NCBI GenBank assembly: GCA_046091195.1 | Contig: JBJTBD010000054.1 | Location: 1 to 53,485 of the forward strand | Length of the DNA stretch: 53,485 nt | Direction: 5' to 3' | Source: Actinomycetota bacterium | GTDB lineage: Bacteria; Actinomycetota; Actinomycetes; S36-B12 | Shown here: positions 710-10,516 of the stretch, in pieces | How the letters are laid out: each line of letters opens with the position of its first letter | Position numbering within the stretch: position 1 is the stretch's first letter | Translations under genes and position numbers: made by a program | Notes under the pieces: model-generated | What the model was told of the DNA's origin: nothing | Database searches by the model: none | What the model saw: the letters and a program-made list of their open reading frames with translations, nothing else

Positions 710-1935
710 CAGGCAACCCGGGTCAGTGTCGGATCCAGCAACTCGGCGAGCGTGATTCCGCAGCGTGCGAATCGATCGCCATGCGGCGGGTACCCACTGC
801 CGCGCACCAGTCCTTGGCCGACGTCCTTGAAGATCGAGGACATCTCGACGACACCGTTCTCGACGCGGCCGGTGACTCCGGCGATCTCGGTGATCCGCCG
901 CGCACCATCGTTCGCGGTGCGCGTGTGAACCACCACTTCGACCGACGACGCGACCGTGGGCACCACGAACTCGCCTGGGATGTTTCGACCCGCGAGCAGG
1001 GGCAGCGTGCAGAGTTTCGTGACAGCTTCCCGCGCACTGTTGGCATGAACGGTCGCCATGGCCGGCATGCCGGAATTCATGGCGATGAGCAAGTCCAACG
1101 CCTCTTCCTGGCGCACTTCGCCCACGATGAGCCGCGTGGGGCGCATGCGGAGCGCTTCCCGCACCAGGCGCCGCAGCGGGATCCCACCCGTCCCCTCCAG
1201 GCTGGGGTCGCGCGTCTGCATCGCGACCCAATCCGGATGATCGATGTCGATTTCGAAGACTTCCTCGCAACTCACGATCCGCTCCTGAGGTGGAATGCAT
1301 CCGAGAAGCCCGCACATCAATGTTGTTTTTCCCGCCTGAGTTCCGCCTGCGACGATGATGTTCAGGCCCGCACGAACACTCGCGTCGAGGAACCGTGCCG
1401 CATGCTGGGTGATCGTTCCCCGCGGAACCAGATCCTGGATGTGACGGGGACGCACGATGAACTTCCGGACGTTGATCACCCAATGGCGTCGGGTGACGTC
1501 GGGAATCGCAACGTGCAATCGGCTCCCATCCGGCAACGTGGCATCGACGAAGGGCTCGGTGAGATCTAGGCGTCGACCCGATGTCCGCAGCATGCGTTCG
1601 ACTAGCGCCCGCACCTCCGCCTCGGTGAACCTGACGTCGGTCACCGTGGCCCGACCTTCTCGGGCGACGAATATCCGCGTCGGCTCGTTCCACCAGATCT
1701 CCTCCACCGTGGGATCGTCGAAGAGGTGCTGCAGGGGCCCAAACCCCGACACGGCGTTGTGGACGTCGCGAATCAGAGTGCGCGCATCCCCCATGCCCTG
1801 GGTAAGGAGGAACTCCGCCGCCTCCTGCTCGATGAGTCGAAGGACACGGTCGGAGTCGAGGAGCGGATCGATACCGTCCCGCCGGATGTGACCACGAATA
1901 CGACTCTCGAGCTGTTCGCGTACGTCGACGTCCAT
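709..1935 (-). CDS. cpaF: CpaF/TadA pilus assembly ATPase
   Basis: Walker A GGTQAGKTT, Asp box CEEVFE, LRMRPTRLIVGEVR, His box TVHANS. Start set at MDVDVREQ (ATG 1935) rather than the longer ORF start. Confidence 0.92.
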   Translation of the reverse strand: MDVDVREQLESRIRGHIRRDGIDPLLDSDRVLRLIEQEAAEFLLTQGMGDARTLIRDVHNAVSGFGPLQHLFDDPTVEEIWWNEPTRIFVAREGRATVTDVRFTEAEVRALVERMLRTSGRRLDLTEPFVDATLPDGSRLHVAIPDVTRRHWVINVRKFIVRPRHIQDLVPRGTITQHAARFLDASVRAGLNIIVAGGTQAGKTTLMCGLLGCIPPQERIVSCEEVFEIDIDHPDWVAMQTRDPSLEGTGGIPLRRLVREALRMRPTRLIVGEVRQEEALDLLIAMNSGMPAMATVHANSAREAVTKLCTLPLLAGRNIPGEFVVPTVASSVEVVVHTRTANDGARRITEIAGVTGRVENGVVEMSSIFKDVGQGLVRGSGYPPHGDRFARCGITLAELLDPTLTRVA

Positions 1936-2029
1936 TGCTCGCCCATCCCGTAGTAGTTCGGTGACGGTAGGACGGGTCAGGTGAGCGCAGGAATCCCCGA
2001 AATTCTTCCTGTGGACAACGGCCTGTGGA

Positions 2030-2932
2030 TCAACGCGCGTCGACGCGGGAGTCGCGCGCGATAAAGCGATCCCAGGCGGACTTGACGAACTCCGGGTGTT
2101 CCATCTGCGCGACATGCCCGCTGTCGGGGAGGACCACGACATGTGCGTCCGGGAAGACGGAGGTCGCTCGGTGCGCGGAGCGGGCGTCCACGAGCGGATC
2201 CTTGCGGCCGTAGATGAGGAGGGTGGGGACGCGCACGCGCTCGGCCAACTTCCAGGGACGTTCGGGACCTCGGTCCACATACGTCTTGAGCAAGGAGCGC
2301 AGGGTCCGCAGGAAGACCTCCGGGACGTATGGGAGTCCGGTCCGCTGTTCGAGCTCGGCGACTGCTTCCGACATGCGCTCCGGGGACATCCGACTGGGAT
2401 CGGCGAAGTTCGCGGTGATCGACATGCGAGCGCGCTCGACAGCGGGTGCCTGCAGGAACTTCGGCATGAGCCGCTCTCCCACTCCGGGGAGGGCGATCAT
2501 CGGCAGGTGCATGTTGCCCTTGGTCGCGTAGAGGCTTGGGAGTGCCGGCGAGATGAGCGTCAGGGATCGGACGAGGTTCGGGTAGCGCGCCGCGATGTTG
2601 ATCGCCACCGCACCACCGAAGGAGTTACCGAATAGGTGCACCGGGGAAAGGCCGAGATGCTCGACAAGAGCAGCCAACGCGCGCGCGTGCCCCTTGGGTG
2701 ACATGTCACCGTCACGCGGCGGCGGGGACATTCCAAATCCCCCGAGATCCACCGCGTACCCATCGACCTCGTTGCGCATGCGGAACATCAGGTCGGTCCA
2801 GTTCAACGCCGATCCGCCGAGCCCGTGGATGAACATTGCCGGGGGAAGTTCCGGTGCCTCCGCATGGCGAACATGCAGTGTGCGATCGGGAAGTACAACC
2901 TCGGTGCCGGGGAACGGTCCGGGTGCGCTCAT
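2030..2932 (-). CDS. Alpha/beta fold hydrolase
   Basis: HGLGG oxyanion motif, GNSFG nucleophile elbow, GRKDPLV and GHVAQME. Start has TACCCT-N6-ATG. Confidence 0.9.
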   Translation of the reverse strand: MSAPGPFPGTEVVLPDRTLHVRHAEAPELPPAMFIHGLGGSALNWTDLMFRMRNEVDGYAVDLGGFGMSPPPRDGDMSPKGHARALAALVEHLGLSPVHLFGNSFGGAVAINIAARYPNLVRSLTLISPALPSLYATKGNMHLPMIALPGVGERLMPKFLQAPAVERARMSITANFADPSRMSPERMSEAVAELEQRTGLPYVPEVFLRTLRSLLKTYVDRGPERPWKLAERVRVPTLLIYGRKDPLVDARSAHRATSVFPDAHVVVLPDSGHVAQMEHPEFVKSAWDRFIARDSRVDAR

Positions 2933-2992
2933 GCGGTCAGGGTACGTGCTGACCCACCCGTGAGGGGACATGCATCCCACTAGGGTGACTGG

Positions 2993-3634
2993 ATGACCGA
3001 GGCGGCGCCGCGGGGGGCACGGCTTCCGCGCGAGCAGCGACGCGAACAGATCCTGGCGGCCGCCCGGGATGTCTTCGGGGGCAGCGGATACCACCCGACC
3101 TCCATGGAGGAAATCGCCGACGGTGCAGGTGTCACCAAGCCGGTTCTCTACCAGCATTTCGATAGCAAACTCGATCTCTATCTGGCGGTGCTGGACACCA
3201 CCATCGACGAACTACTTACCGCAACGGACATCGCCTTGCGATCCACATCGGACAACAAGTTGCGTGTACAACAGACGATGCGTGCCTACTTCGCATTCGT
3301 CGACTCGACAGACGGGATCTACCGACTCCTCTTCGAGAGCGACATCATCGGTAACGACGACGTCCGTATTCGCGTCGACCGGGCCCATGCCGAAGTCGCC
3401 CGGCGCATCGCGGCGGTCATTGCGGAGGACACTGACCTCGGTGAGTCGGAAACCCTGTTGCTGGGATCTGCCCTGCAGGGATTGGCCCAGGTGGCCGCAA
3501 CCCGCTGGATCCGCGGCCATGCCGGTCCGATGGATCGCGATGAAGCAGCGGACCTCGTCGCCGCCCTCGCCTGGCGCGGTATACGCGGCTTCCCGTTAAG
3601 CCACCCTCGTGAGGATTCCCCCGACGCTTCCTGA
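2993..3634 (+). CDS. TetR/AcrR family transcriptional regulator
   Basis: N-terminal HTH SMEEIADGAGVTKPVLYQHFDSK; conserved C-terminal AWRGIRGFP; adjacent to DUF3107. Confidence 0.92.
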   Translation: MTEAAPRGARLPREQRREQILAAARDVFGGSGYHPTSMEEIADGAGVTKPVLYQHFDSKLDLYLAVLDTTIDELLTATDIALRSTSDNKLRVQQTMRAYFAFVDSTDGIYRLLFESDIIGNDDVRIRVDRAHAEVARRIAAVIAEDTDLGESETLLLGSALQGLAQVAATRWIRGHAGPMDRDEAADLVAALAWRGIRGFPLSHPREDSPDAS

Positions 3635-3667
3635 GACCATGGTGCTCCCCAAGTGTGAGGATCTGTA

Positions 3668-3895
3668 GTGGAAATCAAGATCGGTGTCCATGACCACCCG
3701 CGTGAGTTGACCATCGACAGCGAGGAGTCGATCGAGGCCATCGAGAGTCAGGTGCGTGCCGCTATCACCAAGGGTGATGTCCTACGTCTCGCAGATTCCA
3801 AGGAGCGCACCGTGCTGGTCCCCGCGGAAAAGATCGCGTTCGTGGAAATCACCCCGACCACGCGTGGTCGCGTCGGATTCGGGTCTCCGGCTTAA
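3668..3895 (+). CDS. DUF3107 family protein
   Basis: MEIKIGVHDHPRELTI...KIAFVEI...GRVGFG; usual position between TetR and the ferritin-like gene. Confidence 0.85.
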   Translation: MEIKIGVHDHPRELTIDSEESIEAIESQVRAAITKGDVLRLADSKERTVLVPAEKIAFVEITPTTRGRVGFGSPA

Positions 3896-4581
3896 GCGGC
3901 AAGCCCCATCTCCGCCATCCGGCGCGAGTGATTCTCAGTTAAGCGCGCCAACATACGACCGATCTCGGCCAAGTCTGCGCCCGGCCGATCCACGCCTCCG
4001 ACAAGCAGGCTCGACAGCGCATCGCGCTCCGCGGCGACGCGTTGCGCCTGGGATAGTGCTTCACCGACGAGCCTGCGACCCCACAGAGCGAGCCGGCCGG
4101 CTACCCGTGGATCCTCATCGATCGCCGATCGCACCGCATCGACGATGAAGACCGCCTGACCCAGGTCCTCGCACACCCGGAGCACCAACTCCCGCGTCTC
4201 GGGATCGAGGCGGACGGCGATCTCCCGGTAGAAGTCCAATCCGATCCCATCGCCGACATACGCCTTGACCAGGCCCTCGAGCCAGTCACTTGGCTTGGTG
4301 TGTGCATGGAAGTCATCGATCGGCGTGCGGAACGGCTCCATCGCGACGAGAGGGTCGACTCCGAGATCCCTCAACCGTCGGCTCAACTCCTCGTAATGAC
4401 GGAACTCCGCCGCGGCCATGCCGGAGAGGGCAACCGTGTCCGCCAAGGTGGGAGACATCGCAGCGTCGGCCGCGATCCGCTCGAAGGCGCTTAACTCTCC
4501 ATAAGCGAGGACACCAAGGAGGTCGACGACGGCGGCCCGATACTCCGGATCGTCCTGCAGGAGTTCCACCGATACCGACAT
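3892..4581 (-). CDS. Ferritin-like fold (MiaE-like) protein
   Basis: LGVLAYGELSAFER, WLEGLVKAYVGDG, LALWGRRLVGEALSQ; divergent from the DEAD helicase; TAGCCT-N8-ATG start at 4581. Confidence 0.85.
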   Translation of the reverse strand: MSVSVELLQDDPEYRAAVVDLLGVLAYGELSAFERIAADAAMSPTLADTVALSGMAAAEFRHYEELSRRLRDLGVDPLVAMEPFRTPIDDFHAHTKPSDWLEGLVKAYVGDGIGLDFYREIAVRLDPETRELVLRVCEDLGQAVFIVDAVRSAIDEDPRVAGRLALWGRRLVGEALSQAQRVAAERDALSSLLVGGVDRPGADLAEIGRMLARLTENHSRRMAEMGLAA

Positions 4582-4678
4582 GGGTCGTAAGGCTAGTGGG
4601 GCCACCGGGTACAGTGAAGTCAGCACAATCGTGCATGACGCCGCGCGACACTCACCGCGCGAGAGACTTGGAGAAGTT

Positions 4679-6121
4679 CTGAGCACAGTTGACCCCACCT
4701 CGGCCCCCACGTTCGCGGAACTCGGCGCCGAGAAGTCCATCGTCGAGGCCCTGGCAGCCGATGGCATCGAATACGCGTTCCCGATCCAGCAGATGTGCAT
4801 GGCACTGGCCCTCGAGGGCAAGGATCTGATCGGACAAGCCAAGACCGGCACCGGGAAGACACTCGGATTCGGGATCCCGCTGCTTCAACGCTTGACCTCA
4901 CCCCTTGCACCCGAGTACCCGAGCGAGCCAGGCGTCGGGGCACCTCACGCCCTCGTCGTCTGCCCCACACGCGAACTATCCCTGCAGGTAGCCACCGACC
5001 TCGAGCGCGCCGGTCGCATCAAGGGCATGCGTGTTCTCGCGATCTACGGTGGCCGTGCCTACGAGCCCCAGATAGACGCGCTCACGGCCGGCATCGATGT
5101 GGTGGTCGGAACACCCGGCCGCATCATCGATCTCGCAACACGCGGATCACTCGTGTTGAGTCACGTGCGCGTTCTCGTTCTCGATGAAGCGGACGAGATG
5201 CTCGACATGGGATTTCTTCCCGACGTCGAACGCATCGTCGACCTCCTTCCCACGGAACGGCAGACGATGCTGTTCTCCGCGACGATGCCCGGGCAGATCG
5301 TTGCTCTCGCGCGGCGCTACATGCGACAACCGATCCACATCCGCGCATCGGAACCCGGTGATGACAACGCGACAGTCGACGCCATCGAACAGCATGTGTG
5401 GCGAGCACATCCGATGGACAAGGTGGAACTCGTCGCGCGGATCCTTCAAGCAGAGGGACGACACCTCGCGATGATCTTCACGCGCACCAAGCGCAAGGCG
5501 CAGAAGATCGCGGACGAGCTCACCGAGCGTGGCTTCGCCGTCGGCGCCGTGCACGGTGACCTCGGACAGGGTGCCCGCGAGCAAGCGTTGCGCGCCTACC
5601 GCTCCGGCAAAGTAGATGTGCTCGTCGCAACGGACCTGGCCGCCCGCGGCATCGACGTCGACGACGTGACGCACGTGGTCAATTACGAATGCCCGGATGA
5701 TGAGAAGACCTACCTCCACCGGATTGGGCGGACGGGCCGCGCGGGGGCCTCCGGCGTCGCCGTGACGCTCGTGGATTGGGAAGACGTGGCGCGCTGGCAG
5801 ATGATCGATCGCGCACTCAAGTTGCCTTTCAAGGATCCGATCGAGACGTACTCGACAAGCGAGCACGTCTATACGGGCTTGAAGATCCCGGCGGGAACCA
5901 CCGGCACACTGCCCAAGGACAAGCGGACCCGCGCCGGACTCACGGCCGAAGCCGTCGAAGACATCGGTGAGACCGGGAAGAAGTCGGGCAAGGGTCGTGA
6001 CAAGCCGAAGCGCCCATCGGAACAGCGCGCGAAAAGCGAGCGCCCACGTGAGGACCGGGAGAAGAAGTCCAAGCGCCCTCGCCAGCGAACCCGCAAGGGT
6101 GAACCGGTTTCAGGCCAGTAA
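4679..6121 (+). CDS. DEAD-box RNA helicase (RhlE-like); start uncertain, CTG 4679 preferred
   Basis: Q motif (FAELG...PIQ), AKTGTGKT, PTREL, DEAD, SAT, HRIGRTGR, and a basic C-terminal tail. Confidence 0.93.
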   Translation: MSTVDPTSAPTFAELGAEKSIVEALAADGIEYAFPIQQMCMALALEGKDLIGQAKTGTGKTLGFGIPLLQRLTSPLAPEYPSEPGVGAPHALVVCPTRELSLQVATDLERAGRIKGMRVLAIYGGRAYEPQIDALTAGIDVVVGTPGRIIDLATRGSLVLSHVRVLVLDEADEMLDMGFLPDVERIVDLLPTERQTMLFSATMPGQIVALARRYMRQPIHIRASEPGDDNATVDAIEQHVWRAHPMDKVELVARILQAEGRHLAMIFTRTKRKAQKIADELTERGFAVGAVHGDLGQGAREQALRAYRSGKVDVLVATDLAARGIDVDDVTHVVNYECPDDEKTYLHRIGRTGRAGASGVAVTLVDWEDVARWQMIDRALKLPFKDPIETYSTSEHVYTGLKIPAGTTGTLPKDKRTRAGLTAEAVEDIGETGKKSGKGRDKPKRPSEQRAKSERPREDREKKSKRPRQRTRKGEPVSGQ

Positions 6122-6880
6122 CGCTGCGGCGAGTTCGCGATAGGCACGGGCGGCGGGACTCCCCGACGCGGTGGCCAAGATCGTCCGTCCCGTTGCCGGA
6201 GCTTCCGCGACGCGCACGCTTCGGGGAATCGGTGCGAGCACGGGCACGTCGTAGCGCTCGGCGAGATCATCGCGAATCGCCCGCGCATGCAGCGACCGTC
6301 CGTCGTACAGGGTCGGGAGGATGCCGACAACGCGCAGATCAGGATTTGCCCACCGCTGCACCTCCGCCACCGCCTCCATCACTTGACCCACTCCGCGGTG
6401 GGACAGGGTCTCGCAATGAACAGGGATGAGGACGTCGTCGGCTGCGACGAGCGCGTTGATTGTCATGATGCCCAAGGACGGCGAGCAATCGAGAATCACC
6501 CAGTCGTACTTCCCGCGGTGCAAGGCCACGAAGTCGCGCACAAGTCTCTCCCGTCCCGATCTCGCCGCGAGCGCATGGTCCGCACGGGCAAGGTCCGATG
6601 TGGCGGGGAGTAGATCCACACCCTCGGCCGTGCCGATGATTCGCGCGGAATCACCCAGGAACGGTGTGGCATCGCGTGGGACATCCTCGGGATCGATACC
6701 CAACGAGAAACTCGCGCACGCCTGCGCATCGAGATCGAGAACGAGCACACGCTTTCCTCGCTCAGCCAACGCGGACGCCAGGGTGATCGACGTGGTCGTC
6801 TTCGCGACCCCGCCCTTCTGGTTGGCAATCGCCAGCACCCGTGCACCCTCGAGCACGGCGGGGCCCTCTCCGAGCGGCAT
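6110..6880 (-). CDS. ParA/Soj family ATPase (orphan)
   Basis: Deviant Walker A NQKGGVAKTT, DLDAQA, DCSPSLG; translationally coupled to the upstream membrane gene. Confidence 0.9.
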   Translation of the reverse strand: MPLGEGPAVLEGARVLAIANQKGGVAKTTTSITLASALAERGKRVLVLDLDAQACASFSLGIDPEDVPRDATPFLGDSARIIGTAEGVDLLPATSDLARADHALAARSGRERLVRDFVALHRGKYDWVILDCSPSLGIMTINALVAADDVLIPVHCETLSHRGVGQVMEAVAEVQRWANPDLRVVGILPTLYDGRSLHARAIRDDLAERYDVPVLAPIPRSVRVAEAPATGRTILATASGSPAARAYRELAAALLA

Positions 6881-7761
6881 CAGGTTCGCGGTGGATCTTC
6901 GTGCTGGGTGCTCTCCGATGTCGGTGCTAGGGCATCGAGTCGCCGCAGGATCTCCTGCTGCTGCTTGATGACGTATGCCAGCCGCGCATCCGTTGTCGAG
7001 GTCTGCCGACTCGTGGACTTGCTAGAGCGGGAATCGCGCACCGCCCACGTGAGCAGTCCCCCGTAGAGAGCCCCCAAGAAAATGGCGCTCACGATCTGGA
7101 GAACAGTGACGATGATCTGACCCTCATCGGTCAGCGGAGCCCCCACCTTGAGTGACGTGAGGCGGAAGAGCGTGGCCACTGTGAACTCCGCAGCGGCTCC
7201 CGGCTGCGCAAGAGGAGCGTTCGGGTTTTGCGCCTCCGCACCAAGGAGAGCGATTGATCCCATGATGATTGTGCCTACCGACCCGAGGAGCACGAACATG
7301 AAAACTTGGCCTGCCGAGATGCGTCGCAGTTGGAGCACGTACCCCACAACCAGGAACACGATCGCGAGGCCGGGGAGGTTGATGAAGATGGGCAGGGGGG
7401 CCAGAAGCATCGCAACATCCGACATCCGCACCAGACGCGACTCCTGAGTGCGCCGCCGATGGATGATGTCGAGGATCATCGCGGCGAGGATCACTGCCCA
7501 CATTGCGGCGAGGATGATCCAGAGCACCGTGCGCCCGACGTCGTGAACGGGGACGAACGCCAGCCACGTGACGATGAGCCCGTATGCCATGGACTTCGTG
7601 ATCGCCCGCATCACCACGAACCAGGTGGGAACGGGAATCGGGAGCGCGGCCTCCGCGGCAAGTCGGGACCGAATGCCGGAGGACTGCGCGCGCTGGTCAC
7701 CAGGCTTCCGGGCTTCACCGTCCGTCGGTGGAGTCGGCGGGCTCACATCGGGCTCGGACAT
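6880..7761 (-). CDS. Multi-pass membrane protein resembling a 6-TM potassium channel but lacking the TVGYG filter
   Basis: About 6 hydrophobic segments. The region GSIALLGAE...P.A.L...TVAT...PLTDEG...LLTWAV aligns by eye to the KcsA pore domain; C-terminal coiled-coil-like helix. TAACCT-N6-ATG start. Confidence 0.6.
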   Translation of the reverse strand: MSEPDVSPPTPPTDGEARKPGDQRAQSSGIRSRLAAEAALPIPVPTWFVVMRAITKSMAYGLIVTWLAFVPVHDVGRTVLWIILAAMWAVILAAMILDIIHRRRTQESRLVRMSDVAMLLAPLPIFINLPGLAIVFLVVGYVLQLRRISAGQVFMFVLLGSVGTIIMGSIALLGAEAQNPNAPLAQPGAAAEFTVATLFRLTSLKVGAPLTDEGQIIVTVLQIVSAIFLGALYGGLLTWAVRDSRSSKSTSRQTSTTDARLAYVIKQQQEILRRLDALAPTSESTQHEDPPRT

Positions 7762-7816
7762 ACACCAAGGTTAGTGTGAGCAACCCGATTCCATGGATGT
7801 TCAACGAGAGGCGTGA

Positions 7817-8614
7817 ATGGTGGCAGACGAGGACCGTCGCGGCTCACTGACAGCCGTCGGCTCGGGCATTAAATCCGTGGCACACCTGACACTCGAAGCA
7901 CAAGCGCATATCCGCGCCGCGGACATGGTCTTGATCTGTGCGGCTGACGCTGTCACCGACGGCTTCATTCGCGATCTGAACCCCCGGATCGAAGACCTGC
8001 ACGTCTATTACGGCCAGGATCGCCCGCGCCGAGAGACGTATCGCGCTATGGCGGATCGGATGGTCTGGCACGTCTGTGAGGGGCGTGAGGTGGTCGTGGT
8101 GATGTATGGGCACCCCGGTGTCTTTGTGAACCCCACATTCGTTGCCATCCAAGAACTGCGCGACCTGGGGTACCCGGCCCGCATGTTGCCCGGGGTTTCC
8201 GCAGAGGACTGCCTCATCGCGGACCTCGAGGTGGACCCGGCGGCCCACGGTCTCCAGACCTACGAGGCCACCTTCTTCATCACGCGTGCGGTGACCATCG
8301 ATATCCACGTCCCCCTCATCCTGTGGCAGGTGGGGTTGGTGGGAGACCACGGGTTCAACCGCGCCGGCTTCGACGGCCGACACCTGGACCTGCTCATCTC
8401 CCGGCTTGTGGAGCTGTACTCGCCGGAGCACGAGGTGGTCATCTACGAGGCCGCGCAGCACCCCCTGGCCCACCCGCGAGTCGTGGTGCGCCCCGTGGCA
8501 CAGGTGCAGCAGGCCGACCTCACCGCGATTTCCACGATGTTCATCCCGCCGTTGGGCGCACCCCCACCACAATCGGATACCCTCGCAATACTGCGTGAGC
8601 GCGACGGAGAATAG
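7817..8614 (+). CDS. Borosin-type SAM-dependent peptide backbone alpha-N-methyltransferase (TP_methylase fold, stand-alone)
   Basis: GSLTAVGSGI, YY.....R...Y (Y65/R71/Y75), YGHPGVFVNP, MLPGVSAEDCLIADL..DP, WQVGLVG, HEVVIYEAA, STMFIPP: the motif series of OphMA/SonM as I recall them. SD GAGAGG upstream. Confidence 0.9.
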   Translation: MVADEDRRGSLTAVGSGIKSVAHLTLEAQAHIRAADMVLICAADAVTDGFIRDLNPRIEDLHVYYGQDRPRRETYRAMADRMVWHVCEGREVVVVMYGHPGVFVNPTFVAIQELRDLGYPARMLPGVSAEDCLIADLEVDPAAHGLQTYEATFFITRAVTIDIHVPLILWQVGLVGDHGFNRAGFDGRHLDLLISRLVELYSPEHEVVIYEAAQHPLAHPRVVVRPVAQVQQADLTAISTMFIPPLGAPPPQSDTLAILRERDGE

Positions 8615-8643
8615 GCACGTCGACGTCTGTGAAGGAGAGCACC

Positions 8644-9258
8644 ATGTCGGTCACCACCGTGGAAGAGTTCTTGATCAACACGTGCCTGGACGCCCATGCC
8701 CTTCGGGATGCCCAGAGCGATCTCGCCACGGCACTGGCGCAGGCCGGAGTGCCCGACACAATCGCACCGCTGATTGCGAGCGGACGCGGGCCCGCGATCT
8801 CGGCCGCCGTGCGCGCCACTCGCCCACAGCCAGCCGCCGCAGAGATCGAGACTTACGCCCAGGAGCGCGCGGCCGTCGATCCGATCTTTGCTATGCGTCT
8901 GCGGGATGAACCCCGCCCCACCCTCGAGCGCGCATTCCTGGTCACATTCCCCTCGACGCGCACCGTGGAGTCAGAGGACATCGACGGCACAGTGGTGGTC
9001 CGAGTCTTCGACCGCCCCGGTAGGTCCGGACTTTCGGCACCGCAGTCGAGCGCGGATCCGGATATTGATTTCGTCGGTCCCGGAGATGTCGATGTGGACG
9101 TAGACATTGATATTGATGATGTCGTGGACGTCGAGACTATCGAGACCGATACGGATATCGATATCGATGATGTCGTCGATTCGGCAGCACCGGCCTCCGC
9201 GCGGTGGACGACGTACTGGAGTAACCGTCGGGCGCACTGGATCAGCCTGGGGGCATGA
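8644..9258 (+). CDS. Putative split-borosin precursor: BBD/LigA-like domain + NHLP-like leader + Asp-rich core + aromatic tail
   Basis: SD AAGGAG 6 nt before ATG 8644, 29 nt after the methyltransferase stop. N-terminal VEEFLINTCLD...ALAQAGV...IASG; middle ERAAVDPIFAMRLRDEP; core DVDVDVDIDIDDVVD. Confidence 0.8.
   Translation: MSVTTVEEFLINTCLDAHALRDAQSDLATALAQAGVPDTIAPLIASGRGPAISAAVRATRPQPAAAEIETYAQERAAVDPIFAMRLRDEPRPTLERAFLVTFPSTRTVESEDIDGTVVVRVFDRPGRSGLSAPQSSADPDIDFVGPGDVDVDVDIDIDDVVDVETIETDTDIDIDDVVDSAAPASARWTTYWSNRRAHWISLGA
9103..9180 (+). repeat. Two copies of a 27-nt / 9-aa unit (DIDIDDVVD) in the precursor core, at 9103-9129 and 9154-9180
   Basis: gac att gat att gat gat gtc gtg gac versus gat atc gat atc gat gat gtc gtc gat: 5 differences, all synonymous third positions. 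Confidence 0.9.
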
Positions 9259-10078
9259 CCTCCTCGCGCAGCGCCGCCCACGGGCGCGCCCGCTCGTGGC
9301 CGCGTTGACCCGCCGGACAGATCTCGAGGAATTCACAGTAGGAGCACAGTCCGCTCGGCCTCGCAGGAAACACTTCCTCGACGACTTCGTCGACGATCCC
9401 CTCATCGACCGCAGCGAGGGTGTCTTGTGCGCGTCGGATGTCCTCTGCCGCTGATTCCACGCGACGTAGGTGCTCCTCCAGGGATGCGTCGGAGTGCTCC
9501 CAGGAGACCACGGTGGCGCTGGGGATGTGGTGCAGTTCCACCGTCGTGCAGGCCTTCTTCAGCGTGCGGTGCACCATCAGGGCGTACAACGCCAAAGCCT
9601 CGGCCGACCGGACATCATCTGAGGTCGGGACATCGCGTCCCGTCTTGTAGTCGACGACCACATATCGACCATCCCGTTCGTCGATACGGTCGATGCGTCC
9701 CTCGATAACGAGGGTGTCGGTCACGAATCCCAGGGTCCTCTCCTGGCTCAATGGCTCCTGGCGGGGATCGACCTCGCTCAGATAGGCCCGCGTCATCGCT
9801 ATTGCCCGGGTACGCCACTCGTCACTGTGCTCCGCATCGCGGAAACCGGCGGGAATCCACGCGGACTCCAGGACAGCGTGGATTGCATTCGGCTGCCGCT
9901 GGTCGACCGGTAGATCCCACCAACCCCTGAGCGCGTTGTGAATCGAGATACCGAAGTTCGTATGCGCCCAACTGAGGCGCGGCACGCGCGGACGCTGGAT
10001 GTATCGGAACAGGAAGGCACGTGGACAGTTGTGCCACGCTGCGATCTTGCTCGGGGACACCTTCAGGCGCGTGGACAC
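9242..10078 (-). CDS. PD-(D/E)XK / RecB-family nuclease with 4-Cys Fe-S motif
   Basis: SPSKI...CPR, GRIDRID, VDYKTG, QL-equivalent ALALYA, C-terminal CSYCEFLEICP. Confidence 0.88.
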   Translation of the reverse strand: MSTRLKVSPSKIAAWHNCPRAFLFRYIQRPRVPRLSWAHTNFGISIHNALRGWWDLPVDQRQPNAIHAVLESAWIPAGFRDAEHSDEWRTRAIAMTRAYLSEVDPRQEPLSQERTLGFVTDTLVIEGRIDRIDERDGRYVVVDYKTGRDVPTSDDVRSAEALALYALMVHRTLKKACTTVELHHIPSATVVSWEHSDASLEEHLRRVESAAEDIRRAQDTLAAVDEGIVDEVVEEVFPARPSGLCSYCEFLEICPAGQRGHERARPWAALREEVMPPG

Positions 10079-10087
10079 CGTTGGAGC

Positions 10088-10516
10088 CTACGACTGATGC
10101 AGGAATCCGTTGTCTCGTAATCCCCAGGAATCCAGGGCCTCGATGAGACCCGGGCTGGTATCCCAGTGTTCGAGGTCTCGTAGGGGTACCCACCGCGTGT
10201 CACGCGCATCGTCGCCCGCGCACAGTTCCCCCGAGAGCACGGAGACCAGGAAGTCGCGGATCACGTAGGTCCCGCCCGAGGGAACTTCGCGACGCACGGT
10301 TCCCACCTCACGCTCGACCTGCACCGACAGCCCGGTTTCCTCCCACACCTCACGCACCACGGCGGCGGTGGCAGACTCGCCAGCCTCGACCCGCCCACCG
10401 GGCAGCGACCACAGACCCTCGGCCGGTGGTTGACCTCGAAGGATGAGCAGAATCCGGTGCGCATCGTCGATGCACACCGCGCCCACGCACGGAATCTCGA
10501 TTTCCGTGCCGTCCAT
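10088..10516 (-). CDS. NUDIX hydrolase
   Basis: Nudix box GGRVEAGESATAAVVREVWEETG; AGDDA; start at ATG 10516 after TAGCAT-N7. Confidence 0.9.
   Translation of the reverse strand: MDGTEIEIPCVGAVCIDDAHRILLILRGQPPAEGLWSLPGGRVEAGESATAAVVREVWEETGLSVQVEREVGTVRREVPSGGTYVIRDFLVSVLSGELCAGDDARDTRWVPLRDLEHWDTSPGLIEALDSWGLRDNGFLHQS

What the first reader, a model, noticed from the sequence alone, without database searches (positions are those of the whole stretch)
8644..9012. Precursor appears to carry two different leader/recognition domains in tandem (BBD + NHLP-like)
Seen: residues 1-58 (VEEFLINTCLDAHALRDAQSDLATALAQAGVPDTIAPLIASGRGPAISAAV) and residues ~67-123 (EIETYAQERAAVDPIFAMRLRDEPRPTLERAFLVTFPSTRTVESEDIDGTVVVRVF, 8842-9012). 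Established: the first fits the LigA-like helical borosin-binding domain pattern (L..FL..L..D...L.....D....L..AG....L.SG...I). The second fits the nitrile-hydratase-like leader pattern (E...RA..D..F...L...P...L......P....V..E......V), used by proteusins and other RiPP classes. Inference: a chimeric precursor that could recruit the N-methyltransferase plus a second NHLP-recognising enzyme encoded elsewhere, i.e. a hybrid RiPP. I do not recall this tandem architecture being characterised, but I cannot check that here. No clear double-Gly cleavage site is visible.
Basis: partly seen in the sequence, partly recalled or inferred. Interest (0 to 1): 0.85.

Follow-up and report, generated by a model that had tools for sequence, protein, structure and literature searches.

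The report
Borosin precursor with BBD plus NHLP-like domain
A lake actinobacterium carries a small gene cassette for a backbone-methylated peptide whose precursor joins two different folded leader domains, one typical of borosins and one typical of nitrile-hydratase-like (NHLP) precursors; this combination was not found in the papers searched, and what the second domain does is not known.

Summary
ORF 8644-9258 (204 aa) lies 29 nt downstream of a borosin alpha-N-methyltransferase (7817-8614; dbOphM E 3.6e-60, SonM 1.4e-46).

In an AlphaFold2 model, residues 5-59 form a five-helix bundle that superposes on the SonA borosin-binding domain (Z 7.4-8.0, rmsd 1.4-1.6 Å, 52 of 52 residues). Residues 61-125 form three helices plus a beta-hairpin that superposes on two proteusin/NHLP leader structures (Z 7.4 and 5.6). 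These, with fungal borosin and LigA-type chains, are the only 6 of 48,161 PDB representatives with Z >= 5.

Sequence agrees. A profile of domain 2 found only 8 of 1.84 billion representatives: 7 with the same architecture and 1 true NHLP precursor. Profile-profile probability against NHLP leaders is 96.8%; the BBD control gives 4.9%.

Domain 2 is only the folded NHLP "head". The double-glycine "neck" is absent.

The genome's one YcaO/TfuA/NHLP-type exporter cluster has its own Nif11-type precursor in a syntenic relative and does not co-occur with this family.

The precursor, the methyltransferase and a KcsA-like membrane protein form a 2.4-kb cassette that is absent from two same-genus genomes.

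Verdict: a new variant of split borosins.

The parts
6880..7761 (-). 293-aa membrane protein of the cassette. It has no Pfam family. Residues 147-250 form a KcsA-like pore domain, and the filter region TSLKVGAP lacks GYG.
   Evidence: No Pfam match. AF2 model pLDDT 70.8. Foldseek finds Kv4.2, MloK1 and KcsA at E 2e-3 to 2.5e-2. VIA gives KcsA Z 14.3, rmsd 2.6, 101 of 102 residues. It lies inside the 2.4-kb indel.
7817..8614 (+). Borosin-type peptide alpha-N-methyltransferase, 265 aa, stand-alone with no fused BBD.
   Evidence: Pfam TP_methylase 62.4 bits. PDB phmmer: dbOphM 3.6e-60, OphA about 3e-59, SonM 1.4e-46 over residues 9-246. R71 is invariant and Y65 and Y75 are nearly invariant in 104 sequences.
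8632..8637 (+). AAGGAG Shine-Dalgarno-like site 6 nt before the ATG.
   Evidence: Read directly.
8644..9258 (+). Precursor ORF, 204 aa plus the stop codon.
   Evidence: There are 22 homologues at 43-98% identity, all 204-229 aa.
8656..8820 (+). Domain 1, residues 5-59: five-helix borosin-binding domain (BBD).
   Evidence: Helices. SonA: Z 8.0, rmsd 1.4, 52 of 52 and Z 7.4. MroMA clasp Z 5.7, LigA Z 5.3, DesB Z 5.2.
8824..9018 (+). Domain 2, residues 61-125: NHLP-fold head (three helices plus a beta-hairpin). This is the most conserved part of the protein.
   Evidence: DprE2 Z 7.4; MprE7 Z 5.6; nitrile hydratase alpha Z 3.2-3.4. for sequence. Mean pairwise identity is 0.72 for residues 65-98 against 0.56 for the BBD.
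9019..9054 (+). Poorly conserved, predicted-disordered linker, residues 126-137. It ends in the conserved S-x-D-P motif.
   Evidence: pLDDT below 50 from residue 127. Mean identity 0.20. P139 and D142 are invariant in A1.
9055..9180 (+). Acidic/aliphatic D[V/I/T] repeat, residues 138-179: the presumed core (methylation substrate). Its length is hypervariable.
   Evidence: Period-6 repeat at 9138-9168. In-frame 6-nt insertions behind 9105 and 9122 in contigs of 3 of 4 lake metagenome runs laid.
9193..9252 (+). Conserved Trp-rich C-terminal helix, residues 184-203 (RWxxYWxxRxxxWxxL).
   Evidence: H184-203. W192 and W199 are invariant in 28 members. W188, Y191, W192, R195, W199 and L202 are invariant in A1.

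Best explanation
This is the precursor of a split borosin (backbone alpha-N-methylated RiPP or protein) with a bipartite folded leader.

Shown:
- The adjacent gene encodes a stand-alone borosin alpha-N-methyltransferase.
- Residues 5-59 have the five-helix BBD fold of SonA.
- Residues 61-125 are a remote homologue of the folded N-terminal 'head' of NHLP/proteusin leaders (alpha1-alpha3 plus beta1-beta2). They lack the disordered double-glycine 'neck' of those leaders.
- A length-hypervariable D[V/I/T] repeat follows, then a conserved Trp-rich helix.
- The three genes (KcsA-like membrane protein, methyltransferase, precursor) form one 2.4-kb cassette.

Inferred:
- The BBD docks the precursor on the methyltransferase dimer, as SonA docks on SonM.
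- The repeat is threaded through the active site and methylated iteratively, as in the D[V/I] cores of borosin types III, VII and VIII.
- Domain 2 works in cis within this pathway, as a second docking, positioning or solubilising module for a very acidic repetitive core or for hand-over to the linked membrane partner. It is not a handle for canonical NHLP enzymes.

Whether a small peptide is cut out, or the whole methylated protein is the product, is open.
For: Methyltransferase identity.

Gene linkage: 15 of the 17 loci L001-L017 have the methyltransferase directly upstream of the precursor. L013 starts inside the precursor. L014, a truncated remnant, lacks the methyltransferase. L001 and L004 are one contig, and L015 is the window itself.

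BBD fold.

NHLP homology of domain 2: with controls. Five of the seven family-invariant residues of domain 2 that fall in the alignment (R75, D79, F82, E95, P103) pair with identical invariant or nearly invariant NHLP residues (R14, D18, F21, E34, P42); this is read.

Conservation: the helices of domain 2 are the most conserved segment (0.72 against 0.56 for the BBD). The only gene that stays beside the precursor across all clades is the methyltransferase.

Cassette: window 6845-9263 is missing, with flanks abutting 29 nt apart, in the same-genus genomes G104 and G024.

Literature: D[V/I] repeats are experimentally methylated borosin cores (bioRxiv 10.1101/2021.12.24.474128, section 6 read). 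The folded NHLP half is dispensable for the one proteusin enzyme mapped, whereas the LxxxxL neck is needed (PMC10858898, passages read).

Second enzyme: none linked.
Against: - No methylation, binding or expression data exist.
- All folds are predictions from shallow alignments of 23 sequences.
- P0001 itself reaches no curated NHLP or LigA model at E <= 10. Relatives reach only 12.7-18.4 bits on TIGR03793, whose cut-off is 50.9.
- The Z scores of 7-8 are in the range the tool calls 'middling'.
- The role assigned to domain 2 rests on a conservation argument only.
- A membrane-protein gene always lies next to the pair, but it is of a different kind in different clades: KcsA-like here, and two ABC half-transporters in G116 and G197. 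This fits an export-handle role as well.
- The genome is 78.6% complete.
Confidence: 0.6

Rival explanations
1. Hybrid RiPP: domain 2 recruits a second, NHLP-recognising system encoded elsewhere. This could be the YcaO-TfuA thioamidation pair and the C39-peptidase NHLP-type exporter on contig C45, so that the product would carry two classes of modification.
For: - Domain 2 is an NHLP homologue.
- The genome has one cluster of this kind (L020). It contains a TfuA-related fusion, a HlyD-like protein, TIGR03796 NHLM_micro_ABC1 at 880.2 bits (cut-off 853.3), TIGR03797 at 661.5 bits (below 709.4), and YcaO.
- No NHLP or Nif11 leader was detected in the assembled G000.
Against: - The NHLP neck with the GG site that C39 peptidases cut is absent.
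- The syntenic cluster of G104 (93% nt identity) has a Nif11-like precursor (41.4 bits, cut-off 32.3) about 70 nt beyond the point where G000's contig ends.
- Co-occurrence fails in 2 of the 5 genomes checked: G104 has the cluster but no borosin precursor, and G116 has the precursor but only generic ABC matches.
- The borosin genes are a self-contained 2.4-kb indel.
Confidence: 0.1
2. Export or targeting handle: domain 2 is recognised by the linked membrane partner. That partner would be the KcsA-like protein in this clade and the ABC half-transporter pair in the G116/G197 clade. Domain 2 would then deliver the methylated acidic segment to or through the membrane.
For: - A membrane-protein gene is always adjacent.
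- Canonical NHLP leaders travel with dedicated exporters. The family names TIGR03794, TIGR03796 and TIGR03797 come; the biology is recalled.
Against: - The partner differs between clades, yet the invariant residues of domain 2 are the same.
- The known exporter recognition of such leaders uses the double-Gly neck (recalled), which is absent.
- The ABC proteins of L018 and L019 match only generic exporter models, below every cut-off, and have no C39 domain.
Confidence: 0.15
3. Not a leader at all: the whole 204-aa protein is the end product. It would be a methylated, cation-binding acidic protein working with the channel-like partner, and domains 1 and 2 would be its permanent structural body.
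For: - The repeat is flanked on both sides by conserved folded parts.
- There is no protease in the cassette and no cleavage motif.
- Type VIII borosins also have the core in the middle of a large protein (10.1101/2021.12.24.474128, section 6).
Against: A protease may be encoded elsewhere, as for SonA (PMC10549244, abstract read). Nothing here tests cleavage.
Confidence: 0.1
4. The NHLP likeness of residues 61-125 is chance or convergence of a small alpha3-beta2 fold, or the segment is merely a second, diverged BBD.
For: - Z scores are only 5.6-7.4.
- There is no curated-model hit for P0001.
- The literature notes that NHLP alpha1-alpha3 resembles fungal borosin C-terminal domains (PMC10858898, passage read).
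- The BBD against the NHLP profile gives a weak 31-column alignment (probability 4.9%).
Against: - Whole-library HMM hit to a true NHLP precursor at E 4.8e-4 among 1.84e9 proteins.
- hhalign 95.8% and 96.8%, with shared invariant residues.
- BBD against domain 2 gives 0.13%.
- No fold row at Z >= 5 pairs domain 2 with SonA or domain 1 with a proteusin.
Confidence: 0.05

Closest known systems
Type IV split borosin SonM/SonA (Shewanella oneidensis)
   Same: Both have a stand-alone methyltransferase of about 263-265 aa (E 1.4e-46). In both, the precursor carries an N-terminal five-helix BBD (Z 7.4-8.0, 52 of 52 residues) and the two genes are adjacent.
   Different: SonA is about 75 aa, with an 8-residue linker and a short hydrophobic core that is methylated twice (PMC8429565, passages read). 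Here a 65-residue NHLP-fold domain and a 12-residue linker sit between the BBD and the core. The core is a 42-residue acidic repeat, and a conserved Trp-rich helix follows it.
Split borosin types VII and VIII (AinA and others) and fungal type III (AboMA)
   Same: Their core consists of D[V/I]D[V/I]-type repeats that were shown to be backbone-methylated (10.1101/2021.12.24.474128, section 6).
   Different: In those types the BBD is fused to a large methyltransferase (10.1101/2024.01.09.574750, passage read). Here the BBD is on the precursor and the methyltransferase is minimal. None of the passages I read describes an NHLP-like domain in them.
NHLP / proteusin leader peptides (TIGR03793; MprE7 8TB1, DprE2 9CJX)
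   Same: Both share the alpha1-alpha3 plus beta1-beta2 folded head (Z 7.4 and 5.6). Profile-profile probability is 96.8%, and they share R, D, F, E and P positions.
   Different: This domain scores below the family cut-off. It lacks the Pro-rich, LxxxxL and double-Gly neck, it is not at the N-terminus, and it is not clustered with rSAM, YcaO or C39-exporter genes.
LigA subunit / DesB C-terminal cap of extradiol dioxygenases (PF07746)
   Same: The helical bundle fold is related to the BBD (Z 5.3 and 5.2). The literature says BBD-like domains cap dioxygenase active sites (PMC8429565).
   Different: There is no Pfam LigA match at E <= 10, and there is no dioxygenase partner here.

Membership tests
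Borosin RiPP system (split, BBD on the precursor) | Borosin-clade SAM-dependent peptide alpha-N-methyltransferase (TP_methylase fold) | tested here: met
   (dbOphM 3.6e-60; SonM 1.4e-46). R71 is invariant and Y65 and Y75 nearly invariant in 104 sequences. Their catalytic role is recalled from the OphMA/SonM literature.
Borosin RiPP system (split, BBD on the precursor) | Five-helix borosin-binding domain | tested here: met
   Predicted fold only: five helices within residues 5-59. SonA Z 8.0, rmsd 1.4, 52 of 52 and Z 7.4 among 48,161 chains. No sequence model of the BBD was available; Pfam LigA gives no hit.
Borosin RiPP system (split, BBD on the precursor) | Precursor gene adjacent to the methyltransferase, with a core resembling known borosin cores | tested here: met
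   The spacer is 29 nt. The pair is conserved in 15 of 17 loci. The D[V/I] repeat resembles types III, VII and VIII.
Borosin RiPP system (split, BBD on the precursor) | Backbone amide N-methylation of the core actually installed | not testable with these tools
   This needs co-expression and LC-MS/MS.
NHLP leader peptide family (TIGR03793) | Score at or above the curated cut-off (50.9 bits) | tested here: not met
   P0001 has no hit at E <= 10. Relatives P0025, P0030 and P0027 score 18.4, 16.5 and 12.7 bits.
NHLP leader peptide family (TIGR03793) | Folded head: alpha1-alpha3 plus two beta-strands, homologous to nitrile hydratase alpha | tested here: met
   (DprE2 Z 7.4, 75 of 86; MprE7 Z 5.6; nitrile hydratase alpha Z 3.2-3.4). 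hhalign 96.8%. HMM hit to a true NHLP precursor.
NHLP leader peptide family (TIGR03793) | C-terminal leader 'neck' ending in a double-glycine cleavage motif | tested here: not met
   P0001 has no GG. The alignment ends before the ELSDxELExVAGG columns of A6.
NHLP leader peptide family (TIGR03793) | Clustered with NHLP-type exporter, cyclodehydratase, rSAM or lanthionine enzymes | tested here: not met
   The cassette holds only the membrane protein, the methyltransferase and the precursor. The C45 cluster lies elsewhere and is not co-distributed.
LigA (Pfam PF07746) | Match to the Pfam model | tested here: not met
   No Pfam family at E <= 10. There is fold likeness only (1b4u_A Z 5.3).

The most novel reading that the evidence does not exclude
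The folded NHLP 'head', whose role in proteusin and NHLP precursors is unresolved, would be a portable module that was captured by a borosin precursor without its double-Gly neck and without any NHLP enzyme. Together with the BBD it would form a bipartite leader that lets a minimal alpha-N-methyltransferase process a long, variable, poly-acidic repeat, or hands that repeat to a channel-like membrane partner. This would be the first natural fusion of two structured RiPP leader domains, and a direct experimental handle on what the NHLP head does.
Probability: 0.3. Interest if true: 0.75.

Novelty: new variant of a known kind. Interest (0 to 1): 0.6.

Why it matters
Borosin classification (types 0-XI) rests on where the BBD, the methyltransferase and the core sit. 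This family adds a combination not described in the texts I could read: a minimal methyltransferase, a precursor-borne BBD, an inserted NHLP-fold domain, a D[V/I] repeat core and a conserved C-terminal helix, all in a three-gene cassette with a KcsA-like protein.

The function of the rigid NHLP head is an open question. It is dispensable for the one proteusin enzyme that has been mapped (PMC10858898). Here the head occurs without the neck and under stronger constraint than the BBD, so deletion and binding tests in a two-gene system could show what it does.

Practically, a bipartite leader for a processive backbone N-methyltransferase acting on acidic repeats could be useful for peptide engineering.

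The family is rare: 7 representative clusters in 1.84 billion proteins, and 3 of 201 genomes of the order.

Tried and rejected
- Complex prediction. Two copies of the methyltransferase plus domain 2 (alignment A2) scored 0.25 and 0.00, below the mark of 0.32, and the controls were not run. The tool's verdict is 'no answer', so I draw nothing from it.
- ESM Atlas with residues 60-126 gave no usable hit.
- PDB sequence searches with P0001 and with profile A1 gave nothing relevant.
- 'Extended clasp' idea, that residues 1-125 as a whole equal the fungal OphMA/MroMA clasp: only residues 3-58 aligned to MroMA 311-367. This is not supported and not excluded.
- 'Second BBD' idea: hhalign 0.13%. Rejected.
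- RNA evidence: no RNA holder is listed among the 24 runs. Expression is therefore untested.
- The four contig runs that were laid cannot show transcripts.
- Search for the membrane protein in G024, G104, G116 and G197 found nothing. That call had no positive control genome. The indel is the firmer evidence for G024 and G104.
- PMC11221551, the published borosin RODEO paper, is not held. Supplements of all papers are closed. The RODEO-mined and SSN data sets may already list members of this family.

Rows left out:
- A3 uses 103 of the 120 listed methyltransferase hits. The 17 left out are fragments or proteins over about 300 aa.
- A2 uses 9 of the 17 loci L001-L017, and A5 uses 6. The rest are redundant or incomplete.
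- A6 uses 9 of the 11 NHLP ORFs extracted (2 had no clear start) plus P0029.
- One search uses 28 family members, with the NHLP precursor P0029 left out. It cut the core at residue 172, whereas I now place its end at 179.
Full report
WHAT IS THERE. The window's ORF 8644-9258 (+) encodes 204 aa. AAGGAG lies 6 nt before the ATG, and the ORF starts 29 nt after the stop of ORF 7817-8614. The upstream protein (265 aa) is a borosin peptide alpha-N-methyltransferase. It matches Pfam TP_methylase. By phmmer against PDB it matches dbOphM at E 3.6e-60, OphA at about 3e-59 and the stand-alone SonM at 1.4e-46 over residues 9-246. Among 104 aligned sequences R71 is invariant and Y65 and Y75 nearly so. The precursor itself matches no Pfam or NCBIfam model at E <= 10 and no PDB sequence.

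FAMILY. The word-indexed search found 22 homologues (43-98% identity, 204-229 aa, none named) among 1187 candidates. Their alignment shows four parts: a conserved region 1-125, a variable acidic repeat, a poorly conserved tail, and a conserved C-terminal RWxxYWxxRxxxWxxL helix. The family is rare and patchy. It has 2 loci in the 185,579-species genome collection and 12 loci in the metagenome collection. It occurs in 3 of 201 genomes sampled from the order, G000 included, all in one family.

DOMAIN 1. The AlphaFold2 model built from the 23-sequence alignment has mean pLDDT 72 and about 84-93 over residues 1-120. It has five helices between residues 5 and 59. VIA-align places the SonA borosin-binding domain on residues 5-56 with Z 8.0, rmsd 1.4 Å, 52 of 52 residues. 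In an unbiased comparison with 48,161 PDB representatives the value is Z 7.4. The fungal MroMA clasp (Z 5.7, residues 311-367), LigA (Z 5.3) and DesB (Z 5.2) follow. [quoted passage not shown]

DOMAIN 2. Residues 65-123 are predicted as three helices plus a beta-hairpin.
- Foldseek's best PDB hit for the whole model is the NMR structure of proteusin DprE2 (E 0.053, probability 1.00, TM 0.57 on the target). The proteusin MprE7 is at rank 3.
- VIA gives DprE2 Z 7.4, rmsd 3.1, 75 of 86 residues on model 61-135, and MprE7 Z 5.6, 67 of 87.
- Of 48,161 chains only six reach Z 5, and all six are BBD/LigA-type or proteusin chains. The next is 4.5, and nitrile hydratase alpha subunits reach 3.2-3.4.
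- The published MprE7 structure has exactly this alpha1-alpha3 plus beta1-beta2 topology (PMC10858898, passages read).

Sequence evidence for domain 2 is independent of the model.
- An HMM of residues 60-126 from nine loci (A2), run against all 1.84 billion representatives, found 8 proteins at E <= 1e-3.
- Seven of them are 185-239 aa with the domain at about 59-137 and the same overall architecture.
- The eighth, P0029 (99 aa, E 4.8e-4), is a true NHLP precursor. It scores 64.5 bits on TIGR03793 against a cut-off of 50.9 and ends its leader in VTGG.
- hhalign gives 95.8% against P0029. It gives 96.8% (E 3e-10, 55 columns) against an alignment of P0029 plus nine canonical NHLP precursors from two Actinomycetota genomes.
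- Controls: BBD against the same NHLP alignment 4.9%; BBD against P0029 0.19%; BBD against domain 2 0.13%.
- Five of the seven family-invariant residues of domain 2 that fall in the alignment (R75, D79, F82, E95, P103) pair with identical conserved NHLP residues.
- Three divergent family members touch TIGR03793 below threshold (12.7-18.4 bits).

WHAT DOMAIN 2 LACKS. The alignment to NHLP leaders stops at the second strand. The conserved 'ELSDxELExVAGG' segment of canonical leaders has no counterpart, and the protein has no GG at all. In proteusins the enzyme-binding determinant that has been mapped lies in that disordered half, and the folded half is dispensable for SrpI (PMC10858898). Only the part of unknown role is kept here.

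CORE AND TAIL. Residues 138-179 alternate Asp/Glu with Val/Ile/Thr. Relatives carry from a short VVD/VVE stretch up to about 19 uninterrupted DV units. Near-identical copies differ by whole DI or DV units. Contigs of three of four independent lake metagenome runs carry in-frame 6-nt insertions behind 9105 or 9122, and no indel was listed in the leader. D[V/I] repeats are experimentally verified borosin cores in types III, VII and VIII, methylated on the acidic or on the aliphatic residues depending on the system (10.1101/2021.12.24.474128, section 6).

CONTEXT.
- tblastn of ten window proteins against the loci shows the methyltransferase directly upstream of the precursor in 15 of 17 loci. One locus starts inside the precursor. 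One, L014, holds a remnant truncated at both ends and has no methyltransferase.
- The divergently transcribed 293-aa membrane protein is present wherever the locus reaches that far in this clade.
- In two same-genus genomes the flanks (DEAD-box helicase and ParA on one side; PD-(D/E)XK nuclease, NUDIX and MFS on the other) abut within 29 nt. Window 6845-9263 is therefore a three-gene indel.
- The membrane protein has no Pfam family. Its model superposes residues 147-250 on the whole KcsA pore domain (Z 14.3, rmsd 2.6, 101 of 102; Foldseek E 2e-3 to 2.5e-2). The filter position reads TSLKVGAP rather than TVGYG (that motif is recalled).
- In the most divergent members (G116, G197; about 35% identity) the pair is instead followed by two generic ABC exporter genes without a C39 domain.

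THE SECOND-ENZYME IDEA.
- In the 78.6%-complete genome, LanC is not found.
- The six radical-SAM genes are MiaB, HemW, TIGR03960, RimO, LipA and RlmN.
- There is one YcaO and one C39 peptidase, 5 kb apart on contig C45.
- That operon reads: TfuA-related fusion, HlyD-like protein, NHLM_micro_ABC1 (880 bits, above the cut-off), NHLM_micro_ABC2 (just below the cut-off), YcaO.
- However, its 93%-identical counterpart in G104 has a Nif11-like precursor (above the cut-off) about 70 nt beyond the point where G000's contig ends.
- G104 has the cluster but no borosin precursor. G116 has the precursor but no such transporter. G197 has both, and G024 has neither.
- With the neck missing as well, I put this reading at about 0.1.

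MECHANISM.
- Shown: the domain architecture, the homology of both domains, the linkage and the cassette, and the hypervariable core.
- Inferred from SonM-SonA: the BBD docks on the methyltransferase and the repeat is methylated iteratively.
- Inferred from conservation: the helices of domain 2 are the most constrained part (mean pairwise identity 0.72 against 0.56 for the BBD, 28 members), and the only partner gene shared by all clades is the methyltransferase. Domain 2 therefore most likely acts in cis in this pathway. An export-handle role and a 'whole protein is the product' reading remain open.
- The one complex prediction gave no answer.

NOVELTY. Three literature searches and the passages read in six borosin or proteusin papers show no BBD-NHLP precursor. 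PMC10858898 does note a structural likeness between NHLP alpha1-alpha3 and fungal borosin C-terminal domains. Supplements and two ACS Chem Biol papers could not be seen. I rate this a new variant of a known kind, with interest 0.6.

Noticed in passing
G000 contig C45, locus L020:7171-16746 (- strand): A separate RiPP-type operon. It reads: TfuA-related fusion protein (804 aa), HlyD-like protein, NHLM_micro_ABC1 with a C39 peptidase domain (880 bits, above the cut-off), NHLM_micro_ABC2 and YcaO. The contig ends about 450 nt upstream. The syntenic G104 locus has a Nif11-like leader precursor just beyond that point (L021:14543-14695).
   Followed up: partly
window 6880-7761 (-): The cassette's 293-aa membrane protein has a KcsA-like pore domain at residues 147-250 (Z 14.3). 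Several transmembrane helices precede it, a non-canonical filter stretch (TSLKVGAP) replaces GYG, and a conserved C-terminal helix (ARLAYVIKQQQEILRRLD) follows. It belongs to no Pfam family. The family has only 22 clusters, which appear tied to this borosin cassette.
   Followed up: partly
L014:6314-6667: A remnant of the precursor, truncated at both ends: the BBD start is missing and the core and C-terminal helix are replaced by unrelated sequence. It lies next to a 535-aa ORF and has no methyltransferase. It may be a decayed copy or an assembly chimera.
   Followed up: no
L018 (G197:C49) 4223-5017 (-) and 6513-10357 (+); L019 (G116:C35) 1479-4576 (-): In the most divergent family members the methyltransferase-precursor pair is followed by two ABC exporter half-transporter genes. 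In G197 a divergent 264-aa ORF of no known family precedes the pair; by eye it has an HxD...H pattern, which I did not verify.
   Followed up: partly
window 9242-9258: The 3' end of the precursor ORF overlaps by 17 nt the 3' end of the convergent PD-(D/E)XK nuclease gene (9242-10078, -). The right edge of the 2.4-kb indel lies here.
   Followed up: partly
alignments A5 and A6 (precursor residues 4-34): The first two BBD helices give a weak 31-column profile alignment to the start of NHLP leaders (LExLLIxxCxD against ERRLIxRSLxD; probability 4.9%). This echoes the published remark that NHLP helices resemble borosin C-terminal domains, and a very distant common origin of the two leader folds is conceivable.
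   Followed up: partly
window 6880-9260: Twenty lake or freshwater metagenome runs from 17 studies hold half or more of the sampled words of the cassette (one run may be the source sample). No RNA run was listed.
   Followed up: partly
L020:6185-6535 and 6631-7002 (+): Two adjacent paralogous small membrane-protein ORFs (116 and 123 aa) lie next to the YcaO gene on contig C45. I did not examine them.
   Followed up: no
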